A stretch of DNA of 64,000 bases from Octopus sinensis (lineage: Eukaryota): contig NW_021833603.1 in NCBI RefSeq assembly GCF_006345805.1, positions 1-64,000 of the forward strand, in the 5' to 3' direction. The notes under the pieces were generated by a model. The model searched no databases, was not told where the DNA came from, and saw nothing but the letters and a program-made list of their open reading frames with translations. Shown here one piece after another: positions 32,570-56,700 of this stretch. The position numbers and the translations under genes were made by a program. The stretch's first letter is position 1; each line of letters starts with the position of its first letter.

Positions 32570-32591
32570 TTTCTAGCTTCGAACTTTAAAG

Positions 32592-34511
32592 ATGTCTGCA
32601 TTTTTCCTGTTGGTACTGGTACTGATGCTTGTTAACCCGAGTTATGTTACCTTAGCAAGACGTAATTCCTGCCACTACGAAGACACAGTATGTGAGTTTA
32701 GTTTAACCGTTACTCACAAACTACCGATGACTTATCATGGCCATTCAGTCGAAATTATCGACGGCAAACTGTATTATTTCCACAAAGGCAAACATTACAT
32801 CGATGCTGATGATGTATTAACCATGGATGGTTATGATGAGCAATGGTTAGCAATCACTGTAAATGAAACTATCCCAGGCCCTACTATTGAAGTTTTCATC
32901 AACCAGACTGTCATCATAAAAGTCACAAATGAATTGTGGTCCACTGCTACCAGCTTACATTGGCATGGAATTGACCAAGTAGGATCTCCATTTATGGATG
33001 GTGTTAGCTTTGTTACCCAGTGTCCAATACAACCAAGTGAGTCGTTCATTTACATATTCAATACCACTAAGACAGGTACATATTTCTACCATTCTCATAT
33101 CGGATTACAAAGGATAATGGGACTTTATGGAGCACTTATTGTACGGGATAAACCTCCTATTATTCAGGAGAAGGTTTTAATAATTAGTGAATACAATCAC
33201 TTTTGGAATGCGAATAAAGCATGGATGAAAACAATCTATTCCAGTGCATTACATGGGAAAAAAACGCCCGATTTAAGAACATATGATGGAACGTATTTAG
33301 GGCAATTTCTGTATACATCTGGTTTAGTAAACGGCAGAGGACGATATTATGACAAACGAGGACATCACAATGGGGCACCGTTATCAAGATTTAACGTTCA
33401 ACAAGATCGAATGTATCGATTCCGAGTTATTTCCGCAGCCAGTGAATTGCCTTTTGAATTTTCAATTGATTCCCATCCTCTTCAGATTGTAGCGTCTGAT
33501 GGAGCAGATTTGAAAGGATCTTTTTACGATTCTGTCATCATACAGCCAGGAGAACGATATGATTTCTTCATAACAACTAACAAAGACATAAAAAATTATT
33601 GGATTCGAGGTAAAACGTTAACAGAGAATCTAAATCAAACATTCGAAGCCATATTATCATACGAAGGAGCCTCAGATACAGATCCGACCAGCAGAAGCAA
33701 AAACTGTAGTCGTACAGTCTGTGATGTCCTCAACTGTCCATTTATGTATTTTCCAGTAAAATATAATAAAAGATGCCATTCCATTTCTGGTCTCCGTTCG
33801 CCTAAAGTTCAAAATGTACCAAAGTATGAAGAGCACCATTGGGAAGAATATTTTCTTAATTTCGCTTTTCCTAATGGTACAGCTTCCGTGAATGGACGAA
33901 GTTTTCTTTATCCTCATGTCAACCCATTGCTCCAACCAAATGAAGTAAAAACATTGTGCAAAGAAACTGAATGTGGTCCTGGAAAAACTTGCTCATGCAC
34001 GCATTCAATAACGTTATCAAATGGTAATAATGTTCAACTAGTTTTAACAAATATGCACAGACTTTATGGAGTTTCTCACCCTATACATTTACACGGCCAT
34101 TCTTTTCATGTGGTGAAAATGGGTTTTCCTACCTATAACAAAACAACAGGAAAATTAATTTCAATTAATAAGGATATCATGTGTTACGGTGACACGGGGT
34201 ATGAATATTGTAATAATCCAGTCTGGCGAAATAAGACATGGAAAGGAGACAATATACCCGGATTGAATTTAGTAAACCCTCCCTTAAAGGATACTGTAAC
34301 ATTACCCTCAGGTGGTTACGTTGTTGTCAGACTGAAAGCCAATAATCCTGGCTTATGGTTTATGCATTGCCACATGGCATTTCATACCTTTGAAGGAATG
34401 GCTCTGGTAGTAAACGAATCATTTACAGACATACCGACTTGGAAATACCCCTTGCCTAAATGTCGAAGCGTAAATTTACATGGACATTTTTTTTCTAAAG
34501 GGGCAGATTAA
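32592..34511 (+). CDS. Secreted laccase-like multicopper oxidase (three cupredoxin domains), single coding exon
   Basis: Intact 639 aa ORF with an N-terminal signal peptide. All four copper motifs are present: HWHG, YHSH, HPIHLHGH and HCHMAFHTFEGM (Met axial ligand). Confidence 0.96.
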   Translation: MSAFFLLVLVLMLVNPSYVTLARRNSCHYEDTVCEFSLTVTHKLPMTYHGHSVEIIDGKLYYFHKGKHYIDADDVLTMDGYDEQWLAITVNETIPGPTIEVFINQTVIIKVTNELWSTATSLHWHGIDQVGSPFMDGVSFVTQCPIQPSESFIYIFNTTKTGTYFYHSHIGLQRIMGLYGALIVRDKPPIIQEKVLIISEYNHFWNANKAWMKTIYSSALHGKKTPDLRTYDGTYLGQFLYTSGLVNGRGRYYDKRGHHNGAPLSRFNVQQDRMYRFRVISAASELPFEFSIDSHPLQIVASDGADLKGSFYDSVIIQPGERYDFFITTNKDIKNYWIRGKTLTENLNQTFEAILSYEGASDTDPTSRSKNCSRTVCDVLNCPFMYFPVKYNKRCHSISGLRSPKVQNVPKYEEHHWEEYFLNFAFPNGTASVNGRSFLYPHVNPLLQPNEVKTLCKETECGPGKTCSCTHSITLSNGNNVQLVLTNMHRLYGVSHPIHLHGHSFHVVKMGFPTYNKTTGKLISINKDIMCYGDTGYEYCNNPVWRNKTWKGDNIPGLNLVNPPLKDTVTLPSGGYVVVRLKANNPGLWFMHCHMAFHTFEGMALVVNESFTDIPTWKYPLPKCRSVNLHGHFFSKGAD

Positions 34512-43600: not shown

Positions 43601-43729
43601 TGTGTGTGTGCGTGTGTGTGTATGTATGTATATATACACATGCATATAAGCAGTTGTTTGCTATATTATACCGTAAAGGAAAATTATAGTCGTCGACTAA
43701 ACTTCTCTGGTTATTTTTCTAAGTAATGA

Positions 43730-44250
43730 AGGTAACCTTTTTTCATCACCACTGTAGCATTCCCCTTGTCTACTGGAAGTATTATGATGGAATTGTCACT
43801 CTGTAGTCTTTTGATAGCGATCATTTCTTCCTTAGTGATGTTTAGTTTGGGAAGTTTTGCTTTTTCTTGTACCTGTCTCACTTTCCACCTTAGTTCATCT
43901 CCCTGAGCTTTTGGTATCTTTATAGCTATCACTTTAATAGGGGCTATTATGTCCAAGTATGGAATACGCTTAATGGTTGTCGCAAAGTTGAGACCTTTGT
44001 TTAGTACTGCTTCTTCAGAGCTTTCTAGATGTCGGCTACTTACATTAATTACTGCTTTCAAAGGTGGGCGACGGACTTCAGTCTTCATTCTCTGAGCTTT
44101 GAGTTTCATAAACCTCTTAATCTGGCGTGTCTTCACCATTTCAAAGTCTTTCATGTACGTCTTTTCTAGATCCTGTTGGATTCTCTTTCTATCATCATCT
44201 CTGGTTATTTTCCTACGTAATGAAAATAACCTCTTGACTAAACTTGACTA
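43730..44250 (-). mobile_element. Penelope-like element ORF fragment
   Basis: VINVSS..VLNKGLNFA..NITKEE..IIILPVDKGNATVVM is the typical pre-RT region of Penelope-like elements. Confidence 0.88.
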
Positions 44251-44496
44251 ATGGTGTGAAAACACCTACATTGCAAGAAATAGGAGCTAAAGTGCTCCAA
44301 AGCTGTTACAAATCACATAGCATATACTCTGATAGGGGCTGTAATCGCCCCGAACACCGAACCGGGAATTTCTTAGACCAACCGGCCATTTCCGTAGCCA
44401 TCTTTAGTAAAGCCAGCTCGTTCGGTTGATTCCGGGCTAGCTCGCCCATAATCAAGTTTAGTTGGCGACTATAGTTTTCCTTTACCGTATAATATT

Positions 44497-44884
44497 CTTT
44501 TCTACTCTAGGCACAAGGCCCGAAACTTTGGGGGTGGGAGGCCAGCCTATTAGATCGATCCAAGTATGCAACTAGTACTTAATTTATCGATCCCACGAAA
44601 GGATGAAGAGTAAAATCGACCTCGGTGAAATTTAAACTCAGAACGTAAAGACAGATGAAATACCTATTTCTTTACTACCTACAGAGAGGACAAACAAGGA
44701 GAGACAAACGGATTAAGTCAATTATATCGACACCAGTACGTAACTGGTACTTAATTTATGGAACCCGAAAGGATGAAAGGCAAAGTCGACCTCGGCGGAA
44801 TTTGAACTCAGAACGTGCAGACATGTGAAATACCGCTAAGCATTTTACCCTGCGTGCTAACGTTTCTGCCAGCTCGCCGCCTTT
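44497..44884 (-). mobile_element. Composite SINE family B with target-site duplication
   Basis: TSD TTTAC(C/G)GTATAATATT at 44481-44496 and 44885-44900. Confidence 0.8.
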
Positions 44885-45178
44885 TTACGGTATAATATTG
44901 CAAACAGTAGTTTTTATTCATTTGTTGTATAAACATTAGCGATCTGCTAGCCCGGAATCAACCGAACGAACTGGTCTTACTGAAGATGGCTTGGGAAATA
45001 GACGATACTGGCCGGTCAGTCTAAGGAATTCTTGATTCGGGGTGATTGCAGCCCCTATCAGAATATATGCTATGTGCTTTGTAACAACATTGGAACATTT
45101 TGGCCCCTATTTCTAGCTATGTAGGTGTTATTCATATCCTTCATAAAGTTCATTTGACGACAATGATTTTCCTATATA

Positions 45179-45555
45179 TATACATAAAATTTTATAATCA
45201 TGAGTATAATTATAATTAGGGTTCAGCAAAAAAGTGTTTAATTTTTGCTGTACTCTCAAATTTAAAATCTTGAATTACTGTGCTGAAGAGGAGAATGATA
45301 GAGTGAAATATGATTTTACATTTTTCACATCTCTCAAACCTCCATAACGCGTGCACAGTTAATCAAAGCCAGGTGGATTCGTTATTTTTTTCGCTTTACC
45401 TGTGTGGGTTGTTGAGTATTGCTATTTGTGGAATTTTCTTATAGTAGTGAAATAGTTAGTTTTAACTGCTATTTCTAAATTTCAGTATGTGTTGAAGCAA
45501 ATTTTTGCTGAACCCTAATTATAATTATACTCATGATTATAAAATTTTATGTATA
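45179..45555. repeat. Inverted repeat (~55 bp arms) enclosing a decayed hammerhead
   Basis: 45179-45233 pairs with 45502-45555. 45278-45358 reads CTGTG-CTGAAGA-GGAG..CTCC-ATAA-CGCG-TG-CACAG. Confidence 0.75.
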
Positions 45556-45884
45556 AGTTTACGGATAATGGTTCTTTTAACATACCGAACGACTTGGTAA
45601 AATTATTAATTATTAATTAATTAATTAATTTTACCCTTTATTATTATGGATAATATATATATATATATGTATGTATATATATATATATATATGTGTATAT
45701 ATATGTATATATATATATATATAAAAATTCACTCTACCACACACCGAACTTTTCAGAAATAGCAGCCAAAAATTTGGCTATTTCTTCAACTGCAAATAAA
45801 AGTCTCCAGACAATGCATACTCAGAAAATAACTCACATAGGTATAAGGGAAAAAACAATGAAAGATCACATCCATATACGATAC

Positions 45885-45944
45885 CCGAGGACAGTCTGTT
45901 TCTGGATTTGTGGGTAAAACGCCACTTTTCCTTCATCAGCTCAG
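45885..45944 (-). ncRNA. Type I hammerhead ribozyme (mirror of 46178-46237)
   Basis: Exact reverse complement of the + copy. Confidence 0.75.
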
Positions 45945-46177
45945 AGATTTCTTCTGATTTAGATTTGAAAATACTAAGAATCAAACATACCCGTCCGATA
46001 TCTGTAACATCGGACAAACCATGCCAGACACCCAGTACTAGCGAATCCAAAAATAGATCTCATTCGTATTTTTGGATTCGCTACTACTGGGTGTCTGGCA
46101 TGGTTTGTCCGATGTTACAGATATCGGACGGGTATGTTTGATTCTTAGTATTTTCAAATCTAAATCAGAAGAAATCT

Positions 46178-46237
46178 CTGAGCTGATGAAGGAAAAGTGG
46201 CGTTTTACCCACAAATCCAGAAACAGACTGTCCTCGG
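46178..46237 (+). ncRNA. Type I hammerhead ribozyme
   Basis: CTGAG-CTGATGA-A-GGA..GTGG/CCAC..TCC-A-GAAA-CAG-A-CTG-TC-CTCGG, with the GUC triplet ending at 46232. Confidence 0.78.
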
Positions 46238-46420
46238 GTATCGTATATGGATGTGATCTTTCATTGTTTTTCCCTTATACCTATGTGAGTTATTTTCTGA
46301 GTATGCATTGTCTGGAGACTTTTATTTGCAGTTGAAGAAATAGCCAAATTTTTGGCTGCTATTTCTGAAAAGTTCGGTGTGTGGTAGAGTGAATTTTTTT
46401 ACTTTACCATATTTTTATAA

Positions 46421-46459
<39 letters not shown>

Positions 46460-46471
46460 TGTGTATATATA

Positions 46472-46516
<45 letters not shown>

Positions 46517-48258
46517 ATATATTATATATATATATATTATATATATATATATAACGAGGAGCGCTCTGTCGGTTACGACGACGAGGGTCCCAGCTGATAC
46601 GATCAACGGAACAGCTTGACAGTGTGTGACAAGGCTGGCCCTTTGAAATACAGGTACTACTCATTTTTGCCAGCTGAGTGGACTGGCGCAACGTGCCGCT
46701 GGGAATTGAACTCACGACCTTACGATCATGACCCGAATGCCCTAACCACTAAGCCACGCACCTTCACGGACACGCGCGCATTCACACACACACACACATA
46801 CACACACACACACACACACACAATTATAACATGTGTGAAATTTATACATACATGTATATATATCTGTGTGTGTGTCTGTGTGTCTTTGTATATATATTTG
46901 TTCACCCCTACCATCACCGCTTGACAACTAGTACTGGTGTCTTTACGTCCCCGTAACATAGCGGTTCGGTACAAGAGACCGATACAATAAGTACTAGGCG
47001 TAAAAAAACTCGGTCGATTTATTCGATTATAACCGTTCAGAGTGGTGCTCCAGCATGGCCGCTGCCATATGACTGAAACAAGTAAAAGAATAAAAGAATA
47101 TATATATATACACACCCAGCATACTTATTTGTGTCACTGGAGTGCTGCCACCAAGGGGCTACCGCCTTTAAGGGTTGCTTAATCTTTAAAAAACAAAGTT
47201 ACGGCGATTATATAAACAATTATATTTTTTTTTCTTTATTGCCCACAGGGGGCAAACAAGGACAGACAAAGAAATTAAGTCGATTACATCGACAACAGCG
47301 CGTAACTTATATTCATTTAACTGGCTCCGAAAGGATGAAAGAAAAAGTCGACGTCGGTGGAATTTGAACTCAGATCGTAACGGAAGGAGAAATAGCGTTA
47401 AGCATTTCGCCCAGCGTGCTAACAATTCTGCCACCTCGCTGTGATTGTATTATATCATATTATCTTAAACTATATTATATTATATTATATATATGCGTGT
47501 GTTTGTGTTATTAATTGGTGTAGGGGAGACAAACACAAACACTCGCATGTATATAATATAATATAATATAATATAATATAATATACAATATAACATAATA
47601 TAATATAATATGAGACGGGCTTCCACGTAGTTTCTGTCTACCAGATTTCCTAATAAGATATTTGGTCGTCTCGGGGTTATAGTAGAATACACTGGGGCAA
47701 GGTGCCCTGGTTGCAAAGCAGCTTCGTAATCATACGGTCATGTTTTGAGTAATAAACTATTACGGTGTGAATTGAAGTAAACTATAAATTTATCAGATTT
47801 TATTGACAGGTAGCGAGTTAGAACAGTAGGTGGGAGTTTGTTGGCCTGTTTGGTAATATGTCTCTATCCCTGAGTTCGAATCTTTCTGTGGTCGACTTTT
47901 TTTTTTCTTCGTAACTTCGAGGTTGGTAAACATAATACCACCCAAGTAGTGGCAATCTTTCATTTAACTTCTGGACTCGGCCATTTTCATATAGTAGACA
48001 TACGTAGAAAGGAGTGTCTACTAATGTTGACACGGTTTTTTCTTCCCCACCGTCCCAATCTTATCACCACCTTCCTTAGCGAAATCGGTAGGGTGAAACG
48101 AAACATAATATCAGAGCCTGCCCTCCGTCGCCACCCTGGGTGGAAGACGAGCATTTCAATTGGCTAATTTTGTTTCCTGTTGTTCATTTCCATTGTGAAT
48201 CATTCAGTAAATATAATCTGTAACTTAAACCACTAACAGCGGAGATATAATGGTGTCA

Positions 48259-53769: not shown

Positions 53770-56700
53770 CTAGCAGAATTACCCGGCGATGCTCGGGGCT
53801 GAATTGCTTGAAAGTACTGTTAATGATTGCACTGAATTATGATGATTATTCAGACAAATATTGATATAAGTTTACGGCGAATGAATGTATTTGTAAGTGT
53901 ATAGAAAGCCGTGTAAAGGGGTTCCTACCCCCTCGTAGAATGGTGTAAGAATTGAATGTGAGGTTGCCTTGAAAAGAGCCATGTTGTTGTTCTCATAATT
54001 GTAAGAATTTGATAGTCATGGAAGGCGGTGTCAAACGTTCGCAGGTGAATAGGGTCTCTTCGTTTTCCACGAACGGCAGCGGATGTGCTGTTGCAAAACT
54101 TCATGCTGTGTTAAAAGAGAATGGATGCCCTATGTAGGCAAGAGGGGAATGAAGCATGGGTGAGTAAATATGGGTAATTTATAAAATATAGAACGATAGC
54201 ATCTACTCACCATATGTCAGACCGGCAAGACTGTAGTGGTGCTGATTAGATGAATCACAACACAGTGGTGGAGATGTTTTCATTGATGGGCGTTATGATT
54301 AAATTTGTTGTTGTATAAAATGATCTGTTGCTTAGTTTCCAAAGTGTATGTTGCGATCGTGTTGTCGCTTATGTAAACTTTAACAGTGAGAGTGTAAATG
54401 TAGGGGGTAGATGTGTCATGTACGTTGGATATAGAAGATGAGGCTGGTGGTTTGATGATGAATGGATAGAAATAGAGGTGAGCGAAGGACAGGTGTTGGT
54501 TAAGTGTGAATTAATGTCATGAAACGCCTAGAAATGTAAATGCCATCATAAAAGAGAGTCGTATGTAAGTGAAATACTAACGTGTTCGAAAATGATGAAA
54601 CGTAGTAATCCTATAAAACCTCCTTGTACACAATGTTTGTTGTTTTTCGTTGTGGAACGAATGCGAAAGCATCACTGTTGCTGCCGACGCGCGAGCAGGC
54701 AACATAAAGCTGACCATGAGAGAAACATGGCTCTCCAAAATGTATTCCCGCCACAGACAGTGTTTGACCCTGCGCTTTGTTAATTGACATTGTGAAACAT
54801 GGCCTTACTGGGAACTGGGACCTCCGAAATATGAAAGATAGGTTTGCTCCTGATGGGAAAAGATGCATCCTAGGTATGAGCACAACGTTGCCTCGACCGC
54901 ACCCTGTGATAATGGTGGCCTCAATCAGATTGGGAGATAAGGACCTAACGATCAAACGTGTGCCATTGCATTGTTTTGGGGGAAACAAATTTCTAATGAG
55001 CATTATAGGGGCACCAACTTTAAGTCTGAGAATGCGTGGTGGTAGTCCGGTGGGCTCAAAGGAATTGAGTACCTCTATTGGATAGTTGATGACGTCCTCT
55101 GGGTCAGGAGTTGTACCGATAGACTTATATACATAGACATCCCCAGGAATGAGTTTTAGCATTTCATCATTAATATGGTGAACAGTTTTATTCCTCGGTG
55201 CCAGAATAGCCCTTTGGCCAATCCAATCCATATTCTGATATTAGCTTGTAGATCTGGGAACACTGCATCTCTGAGATCAGAAGGCGTTTTAACAATGGTA
55301 CAAATGGAATCGATGGCAATATTACCATTTTCATCCCCTGGTATTTTGCCTTCGCCAAGTGCAAGGAGGGTGTGAGAAAATGCTGCTGATGTGATATCAA
55401 GTCGCATATGAGCACGCATATTGGTGTGAAGTTTGAGTCTTCACCAGTGGCCACAATGTAGATGACTTAAGACACGCACTTACTGCATCAGCTCTCGTCC
55501 CTTTGGGAATAACGGGAAGTGTTTGTCGGAAGTCCCCTGAAAGAAGAAGTGTTATGCCTCCCATGGGAGCTGAAGAGTGTTTGATGTCTCTGAGAGATCT
55601 ATCTAGTGCCTCAAGAGCACCTCTGTGGGCCACCGTGCATTCATCCCAAACGATAAGCTTGCATCGTCTGAAGACTTCTGCCTGATCGGAGCTGTTACTG
55701 ATGTTGCAAGTTGGTGTCTCAGTTTTCGCTAAGTCAAGCGGGAGCTTGAAAGTGGAGTGAGCTGTCCTGCCGCCTGGCAACAAAGTAGCCACAATTCCAG
55801 ATGATGCCACAGCTAGGTCAATGCCTTGTGTTCGCCTAATCTCAGCCAATATTAATTTGTTGACAAAAGTTTTCCCAGTGCCCCCAGGAGCGTGCAGGGA
55901 AAAAATCCCCCCAGCTTGGGTCCGGACTGAATTAACAACGGAGTTGTAAGCGAACTTCTGTTCTAGAAGGAGCTTTGGCTCATTGTCGGCTATATACTCG
56001 GCAAGCTCGTCAACATTAAAACATGTCTCACGCAGCAAATGTGAAGACAGAGTGTTTGTGCTTTCCGGTTTGTTGAAGGTAGGCCATAGACCGGCAAGGC
56101 ACTACCGCCCATATCAAGTACAGTATCTTCGAACGTAGTTTGTTACCACACAGCCACACCTTCTCCTATGTATGTGTGTGTGTTTGTGTGTGTGTGTGTG
56201 CGTATGTGTGTATGGGTAGATATATTATGCATGTATATATGTGTATATATATGTGTGTACATATTACATGTACATCTATATATATATACATCTACACATA
56301 AAATACAAAATACAAAGTTATATCTTGATATCGCTAGTAATAACAATACTCAAAATATATAACAGAATGGAATTGTAGGCCCGTCTCTGGCAATTTCGAT
56401 CAAGTGGATCTTGTCCTCCCTCTTGTATAGAAGTGTACGGCTGCAGCGAAATTCATTTTTGGACTTTCTTCTATCGAAGGAATTTTAACAAAAATGCTTC
56501 CGTAAAGACGGTGAAAATATTGTCAATTTCCCCAAACAGGGACACAATTCAATTTTTAAACAATAACCAAAGCCCCTTCTCCGAAAGGGGGAGGGTTACG
56601 GTTTACAATTATTTAACAAATGCAACACAACAACGTTTCCCTGACGAGGAACAAACAAACGTGATTACAATAGTCAAACAGTAATAATAATAACAAACCT

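What the first reader, a model, noticed from the sequence alone, without database searches (positions are those of the whole stretch)
45723..46398. 676 bp palindrome with a hammerhead on each strand, embedded in (TA)n
Seen: 333 bp arms, an 11 nt loop, and a GUC hammerhead at mirror positions (45885-45944 - and 46178-46237 +). A transcript from either strand would contain one ribozyme and its antisense and could fold into long dsRNA. Inference: a non-autonomous fold-back formed from inverted Penelope pLTRs. It could be a source of endo-siRNA or an ADAR substrate, and the long hairpin would compete with ribozyme folding.
Basis: partly seen in the sequence, partly recalled or inferred. Interest (0 to 1): 0.75.

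Follow-up and report, generated by a model that had tools for sequence, protein, structure and literature searches.

The report
Head-to-head hammerhead retrozyme, LINE-targeted family
This palindrome is one ordinary back-to-back copy of a young, protein-free jumping repeat that carries a predicted self-cutting RNA motif, sits in TA microsatellites and is likely copied by Penelope-type enzymes; a second jumping gene sits at one exact site in at least 19 places in this repeat family, a site left empty in both arms here.

Summary
The palindrome is real: 333/332-bp arms, 11-nt spacer, mirrored type I hammerhead motifs, (TA)n on both sides. It is not a special hairpin gene. Each arm is a 5'-truncated piece of a ~561-nt non-coding monomer (hammerhead 27-mer found 253 times; tandem arrays; 1.8% divergence), i.e. 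a non-LTR retrozyme. 28 of 58 sampled loci carry an inverted 5' piece, always head-to-head; a spacer this short (2 of 36 junctions) is what random truncation gives. Both arms share a variant seen in 1 of 73 loci, so they came from one template. Likely mechanism: Penelope-type reverse transcriptases prime both strands of a cut (TA)n and copy one RNA, probably a circle, from two preferred start sites. No autonomous partner sharing the sequence was found, so 'inverted pLTRs' is not shown. Read-through RNA would bury the ribozyme; expression and editing of this locus are untested. Side result: an L1-group (Tx1-like) LINE sits at one site of the monomer with an 18-bp duplication in at least 19 of 53 copies and at least 4 haplotypes. 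The scan noted both the two-armed insertions (this genome) and LINE-in-retrozyme (this and other genomes) before.

The parts
45653..45722 (.). (TA)n target tract, left; also the 3' flank of the sister-family copy
45723..46055 (-). inverted, 5'-truncated copy of the retrozyme monomer (majority-monomer positions 397-562 then 1-166; position 1 = base after the hammerhead cut); outer end is not at either preferred start site
45884..45945 (-). type I hammerhead motif, mirror copy; predicted cut after 45890
46009..46026 (-). empty 18-bp target of the site-preferring LINE (mirror copy)
46052..46055 (.). 4-nt overlap (AATA) shared by both copies at the head-to-head junction
46056..46066 (+). 11-nt spacer = family sequence of the right-hand copy, strongly conserved in the sister family; weak, unproven likeness to the U1/U2 upstream motif
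46052..46421 (+). direct, 5'-truncated copy (positions 382-562 then 1-190), ending at the commonest 3' start site
46096..46113 (+). empty 18-bp target of the site-preferring LINE
46177..46238 (+). type I hammerhead motif: 6-bp stem I, CUGAUGA, bulged A, stem II, extra A, GAAA, near-palindromic CAGACUG stem III, GUC; predicted cut after 46232
46422..46553 (.). (TA)n target tract, right
45179..45652 (+). neighbour: older sister retrozyme family (70% identical monomer), itself a small fold-back, with a decayed hammerhead at 45277-45359

Best explanation
The palindrome is one insertion of a young, non-coding, ~561-nt hammerhead retrozyme family whose two 5'-truncated copies meet head-to-head in a (TA)n tract, likely made when Penelope-type reverse transcriptases primed both strands of the cut target and copied one RNA template, probably a circle. 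Shown: family, tandem units, (TA)n targeting, head-to-head polarity, two preferred 3' ends about 90-100 nt apart, one template per locus. Inferred: transcription, dimeric self-cleavage, circularisation, the Penelope (likely Neptune-type) enzyme acting in trans, and end-joining of the two cDNAs (here through AATA). The near-perfect symmetry of this copy is a chance outcome of where the two cDNAs stopped. As RNA, read-through from either side would make the antisense arm first and zip up a ~330-bp duplex, so this copy is predicted to be ribozyme-dead and, if transcribed, a dsRNA by-product rather than a selected gene.
For: Exact hammerhead 27-mer 253 times, control 0; 58 full units of 554-570 nt, 1.8% from their majority, longest stop-free frame 93 aa. 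28 of 58 loci on contigs C1-C8 have an inverted piece; 36 head-to-head junctions against 1 tail-to-tail in 74 locus records. (TA)4 next to the 3' end in 63 of 67 loci, both ends in 49. Where both outer ends lie at a preferred site, 13 of 15 pair a short (186-205) with a long (290-294) end, P=0.003 (one end read by eye; 19 other two-armed loci, this one included, have an end elsewhere; L012, L087, L117 left out). 11 of 36 inverted arms hold sequence not contained in the other arm, so they cannot be snap-back copies of the first cDNA. The window's arms share variant 155G, present in 1 of 73 loci; 14 of 37 two-armed loci share rare variants between arms, including non-contained L020, L029, L078, L119. 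7 of 12 arrays have a locus-private variant in every full unit. Offsets between arm starts run evenly from 15 to 279; 2 of 36 are <=30. Intact RT + C-terminal GIY-YIG elements with a CX4CXXC linker motif, hammerhead-like pLTR and (TA)n flanks exist in the genome. Published: inverted 5'-truncated copies, tails and microsatellite bias in PLEs (PMC8557442, passages), head-to-head as the usual arrangement (PMC3846280, passages), both-strand cleavage and two internal RT starts (PMC11167929, parts 1-2 of 4).
Against: No autonomous element sharing sequence with the monomer was found (only 150 of 5029 GIY-YIG candidates were scored). The distance between the two 3' ends (90-100 nt) exceeds the 30-40 nt PLE tail. 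The hammerhead has an extra A between C11.1 and G12, no Rfam hit, and stem I is predicted unformed even in one-arm transcripts, so cleavage and circles are unproven. This locus alone also fits snap-back self-priming (arm contained, 4-bp overlap, 11-nt loop). Variants shared across units or arms could also come from post-insertion conversion or unsampled tandem source loci; 10 common variants are discordant between arms.
Confidence: 0.8

Rival explanations
1. Snap-back: a single cDNA stopped at AATA, folded back over the 11-nt loop and copied itself, giving the inverted arm.
For: For this locus the left arm is contained in the right, overlap is 4 nt, loop 11 nt, and both arms share a unique variant. 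Self-priming was proposed for PLE palindromes (PMC3846280, passage).
Against: Cannot make 11 of 36 family junctions; offsets are evenly spread with no excess of short loops; short/long end pairing 13 of 15.
Confidence: 0.12
2. The arms are solo inverted pLTRs of an autonomous Penelope element not yet found, not a free-living retrozyme.
For: PLE-like ends; retrozymes match pLTRs in Xenopus (10.64898/2026.07.22.740005, parts 1-3 of 5); only part of the PLE families were examined.
Against: Monomers join head-to-tail with no ORF in arrays of up to 9 full units; no RT-GIY-YIG ORF is joined to the family in 84 locus records with 1.5-4 kb upstream.
Confidence: 0.05
3. Assembly or read artefact (fold-back chimera).
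For: Unplaced 64-kb contig; junction unique in the assembly and not bridged in the contigs listed.
Against: Flanks not mirrored, arms of unequal reach, a true mismatch, and the same architecture in 28 of 58 loci.
Confidence: 0.02
4. A selected hairpin-RNA locus (endo-siRNA source or ADAR decoy) that silences the family.
For: MFE -617.6 kcal/mol; one family contig with an A>G cluster; PLE small RNAs are known in rotifers (PMC3846280, passage).
Against: Very young, one of many fold-backs, spacer length as expected by chance; no locus-specific RNA evidence.
Confidence: 0.01

Closest known systems
Metazoan non-LTR retrozymes (PMC7229834, passages and Discussion read; bioRxiv 10.64898/2026.07.22.740005, parts 1-3 of 5 read)
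   Same: Non-coding tandem monomers, one type I hammerhead each, GC 36%, dispersed monomers to multimers, co-occurring PLEs.
   Different: 561-nt unit (coral, mussel, axolotl 220-390 nt; families of 51-972 bp reported in the preprint); about half of loci have a head-to-head inverted arm ('inverted' occurs 0 times in PMC7229834); strict (TA)n target; extra A before GAAA; host to a site-preferring LINE.
EN+ Penelope-like elements, Neptune/Poseidon type (PMC8557442, PMC3846280, PMC4209133 passages; PMC11167929 parts 1-2)
   Same: Partial tandems, inverted 5'-truncated copy, one end longer than the other, microsatellite targets, hammerhead with short palindromic helix III and a bulged base after A9.
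   Different: No ORF; two ends about 90-100 nt apart instead of 30-40; no sequence link to an autonomous family found.
Target-specific Tx1-clade LINEs: Tx1L in Tx1D, Tx1-Mar in Mariner-N4, Keno in U2 (PMC4494074, passages)
   Same: APE-RT-zinc-knuckle LINE repeatedly at one site of another repeat, long TSD, tandem stacks, above the 20% flank criterion of that paper.
   Different: Target is a hammerhead retrozyme; clade placement here rests on domains, L1 likeness and recall, not on a tree.
L1 twin priming (recalled, no paper read)
   Same: Second priming on the opposite strand gives an inverted 5' part joined with little or no microhomology.
   Different: In L1 the two parts are non-overlapping pieces of one linear RNA; here both start near the same 3' region and overlap, which needs a circle, a multimer or two RNAs.

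Membership tests
non-LTR retrozyme | non-coding tandem monomer with one type I hammerhead per unit | tested here: met
non-LTR retrozyme | dispersed, young copies (mobility), low GC | tested here: met
   253 exact motif hits, 1.8% divergence, GC 0.36
non-LTR retrozyme | self-cleavage and circular RNA in vivo | not testable with these tools
   only Logan contigs of runs guessed to be RNA; private variants in all units of 7 of 12 arrays are indirect
type I hammerhead | core CUGANGA, GAAA, NUH, stem I | tested here: met
   stems I and III covary between this family and the 70%-identical sister family
type I hammerhead | G10.1-C11.1 pair directly before G12 | tested here: not met
   an extra A lies between the stem II C and GAAA, fixed in the 253 exact hits; the sister family has the canonical junction
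type I hammerhead | short palindromic helix III for dimer activity | tested here: met
   CAGACUG, self-dimer -8.3 kcal/mol; feature described in PMC4209133
type I hammerhead | Rfam model hit | tested here: not met
autonomous Penelope-like element | RT + GIY-YIG ORF joined to the repeat | tested here: not met
   84 locus records
Penelope-mobilised element | head-to-head inverted 5'-truncated copy | tested here: met
   36 to 1
Penelope-mobilised element | tail: two preferred 3' ends, one per side | tested here: met
   13 of 15, but 90-100 nt apart
Penelope-mobilised element | sequence shared with the pLTR of an autonomous partner | tested here: inconclusive
   none in the loci held; search saturated by one family
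target-specific Tx1 LINE (side finding) | APE + RT + zinc knuckle, L1 group | tested here: met
   (L1 ORF2p E 5.5e-69, R2 3.7e-23)
target-specific Tx1 LINE (side finding) | >20% of flanks in one repeat, with TSD, independent insertions | tested here: met
   at least 19 of 53 3' ends; at least 4 haplotypes; both TSD copies share a private variant in L195
target-specific Tx1 LINE (side finding) | Tx1 clade by RT phylogeny | not tested
   no named Tx1 references in the hits
snRNA-type promoter (lead from earlier notes) | U1/U2 upstream motif 55-60 nt before the LINE site | tested here: inconclusive
   site at -54 ranks 4 of 1124 with a 9-nt matrix (score 3.5; real promoters 8-14) but 14-33 with negative scores for longer matrices

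The most novel reading that the evidence does not exclude
A three-tier parasite system: a Penelope RT dimer copies one circular ribozyme RNA from two fixed start sites into both strands of a (TA)n break, making self-silencing dsRNA fold-backs at half of all insertions, while a Tx1-type LINE homes to one base of that circle's genomic copy, is co-transcribed with it (carrying target sequence at its 5' end) and is at times carried along as cargo.
Probability: 0.5. Interest if true: 0.65.

Novelty: new member of a known kind. Interest (0 to 1): 0.38.

Why it matters
The palindrome itself is ordinary for its family. The family is a clean, young data set for an open question named in PMC8557442 and PMC3846280: how Penelope elements make head-to-head inversions and tails. 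Its junctions argue for double priming on one RNA rather than self-priming, and give genomic support for the proposed but unshown link between retrozyme circles and PLE enzymes. A LINE that prefers a ribozyme retroelement did not appear in my searches and offers a defined 18-bp target for endonuclease assays.

Tried and rejected
Rfam: no hammerhead hit; miRNA hits are generic hairpin matches below gathering score. Search for an autonomous partner through GIY-YIG loci, blastn and an HMM of both sister families: only unrelated neighbouring insertions. No RNA holder listed: 14 runs guessed to be RNA hold 37-60% of the words, none is on record as RNA. Junction not bridged in listed contigs (340 pieces not shown). 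Exact-walk microhomology was confounded by variants and replaced by BLAST overlaps (10 of 24 non-insert junctions overlap by >=2 nt, 17.6% expected, P=0.005; BLAST ends may inflate this). Tandem LINE stacks were dropped as proof of targeting, since identical truncations repeat elsewhere (L217). A single hitch-hiking composite was rejected as the whole story, though L094 is one. Pattern for a LINE at the matching site of the sister family: 4 non-target hits against 11 control hits. MITE/DNA transposon reading rejected: arm ends vary and units are tandem. Sequence look-up in earlier findings: nothing. Supplements of the papers were not read; retrozyme tables of the bioRxiv preprint (closed) and PMC8557442 file S1 could list related families.

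Full report
Observation. The inverted repeat is as described: arms 45723-46055 and 46067-46398, one substitution and one 1-base indel, 11-nt spacer, mirrored hammerhead-like motifs with a GUC triplet, predicted cut after 46232, (TA)n on both sides. The right copy continues to 46421 and the spacer belongs to it. The flanks do not mirror each other, which a fold-back read would. Rfam finds no hammerhead.

Family. The arm matches many places at 98-99% (1007 candidates, 40 scored). It is part of a head-to-tail monomer of about 561 nt (58 full units, 554-570 nt, 1.8% from their majority), non-coding (longest stop-free frame 93 aa), GC 0.36, folding as a circle at -165.3 kcal/mol, z -8.7 against 40 shuffles, antisense -104.4. 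An exact 27-mer of the ribozyme occurs 253 times, control 0. No RT-GIY-YIG ORF is joined to the family in 84 locus records with 1.5-4 kb of upstream flank. The element next door (45179-45652) is an older sister family, 70% identical over 526 columns, with a canonical core and different but pairing stems I and III. This fits a non-LTR retrozyme (PMC7229834, passages and Discussion; bioRxiv 10.64898/2026.07.22.740005, parts 1-3 of 5). The host is likely a cephalopod (inference: best named hit of the LINE below is from Argonauta).

Ribozyme. Core, 6-bp stem I, bulged A after A9 and a short near-palindromic stem III match PLE-type hammerheads that work as dimers (PMC4209133, passages; self-dimer -8.3 kcal/mol). 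Against activity: a fixed extra A before GAAA, z 0.39 for the local fold, and stem I probability near 0 even in one-arm transcripts. Cleavage is untested.

How the palindrome arose. Among 58 loci on contigs C1-C8 (those of the first 100 places), 28 have an inverted piece; over 74 locus records 36 junctions are head-to-head and 1 tail-to-tail. (TA)4 lies at the 3' end in 63 of 67 loci. 3' ends cluster at 186-205 and 290-294; in two-armed loci with both ends at these sites 13 of 15 pair short with long (P=0.003), while 19 others, the window's among them (166/190), have an end elsewhere (this test was prompted by earlier notes). That is the PLE 'tail' pattern, traced in vitro to two internal RT starts with cleavage of both strands (PMC11167929, parts 1-2), though longer here. 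11 of 36 inverted arms are not contained in the opposite arm and so need a second priming on RNA; offsets between arm starts are spread from 15 to 279, with 2 of 36 at 30 or less, so an 11-nt spacer needs no special cause. The window's arms share a variant found in 1 of 73 loci; 14 of 37 two-armed loci share rare variants between arms (10 common variants are discordant), and 7 of 12 arrays carry a private variant in all full units. One template copied by two enzymes, possibly round a circle, explains these together; conversion or unsampled tandem sources are the alternatives. For this locus alone snap-back also fits. Head-to-head inversions are known for PLEs and were read as self-priming (PMC3846280; PMC8557442, passages).

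Mobiliser. The genome holds intact 762-883-aa RT + C-terminal GIY-YIG frames, one with a CX4CXXC linker typical of Neptune/Nematis, (TA)n flanks and a hammerhead-like pLTR. No sequence shared with the monomer was found, but only 150 of 5029 candidates were scored. The partner is inferred, not identified.

RNA consequences. Read-through from either side meets the antisense arm first and is predicted to form a ~330-bp duplex (-617.6 kcal/mol) with no ribozyme helix. No run is on record as RNA. Contigs of four runs guessed to be RNA cover the monomer; one 170-nt contig at depth 3 shows 7 visible differences, all A>G, of 14 in all: a weak, family-level hint of editing, not assignable to this locus.

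Side finding. A 5.5-kb LINE (APE, RT, zf-RVT; nearest solved protein human L1 ORF2p; 'Tx1-like' by recall) interrupts the monomer with an 18-bp duplication (423-440 in L003 numbering). Of the 30 best 3' ends, 16 run into the retrozyme at this site, 4 into the duplication plus another LINE, 10 elsewhere; genome-wide at least 19 of 53. All 14 5' junctions seen are full length at the same base. Hosts fall in at least 4 haplotypes, concordant on both sides, and in L195 both duplication copies share a variant absent from the empty copies: independent insertions. Three loci on different haplotypes share upstream variants, suggesting the LINE RNA carries target sequence; L094 is a composite moved by the retrozyme route. 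Other subfamilies sit at other sites, so this is preference, not exclusivity. Both arms in the window hold the empty site (46096-46113, 46009-46026). Earlier notes placed such sites at snRNA-type starts; here U1/U2 genes share an ATCAG motif at -55 to -60, and the spacer gives only a weak match at -54: inconclusive. TE-targeting Tx1 elements are known (PMC4494074, passages); no listed paper combined Tx1 with hammerhead or retrozyme (listings only, plus passages of PMC8869645 and PMC13282606).

Verdict. Real, but a common form of a known kind of element; the scan has noted the same architecture repeatedly in this genome. Value lies in the family-level evidence on Penelope double priming and in the LINE-retrozyme pair.

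Noticed in passing
window 43714-45150: Decayed Penelope 5' end (178-aa ORF start on the minus strand, hit by PLE proteins at E 3e-6) with a hammerhead-like remnant and an inverted copy at about 44930-45150, split by SINE insertions; three PLE-derived inverted structures lie within 2.7 kb.
   Followed up: partly
L064:6150-7570, L068, L075, L169, L180: Further hammerhead repeat families (stem III CAATTG, CATATG, CTCGAG, CTATGCATAG), one again as a two-strand fold-back in (TA)n.
   Followed up: no
L070:5158, L039, L048, L051-L054, L061: The pLTR of the intact PLE family carries a hammerhead-like motif with U3/A8 in place of C3/G8.
   Followed up: no
L062:1174-2610: A 479-aa frame without Pfam match lies just upstream of, and overlaps, the 781-aa RT-GIY-YIG frame.
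   Followed up: no
L209, L212, L214-L218: Another subfamily of the LINE sits, often in tandem stacks, just upstream of what looks like the first exon of a multicopy locus on several contigs; L219-L221 sit in a SINE head next to another LINE.
   Followed up: partly
window 47230-47260 and L095:3800-3829: The 3' tail of the abundant SINE resembles the LINE's 3' end (seen by eye), a possible SINE-LINE pair.
   Followed up: no
L266 (U2 gene): Sequence just upstream of this U2 copy ends like a LINE 3' tail instead of a promoter, possibly a U2-targeting insertion.
   Followed up: no
run X1 laid on L193:1455 and 1497: Single contigs join LINE-like 3' and 5' ends to the retrozyme at other positions than the main site.
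   Followed up: no
window 32577-34508 (+): Single-frame 644-aa multicopper oxidase.
   Followed up: no
window 54614-56101 (-): Helitron-like helicase fragments by eye (motif recalled).
   Followed up: no
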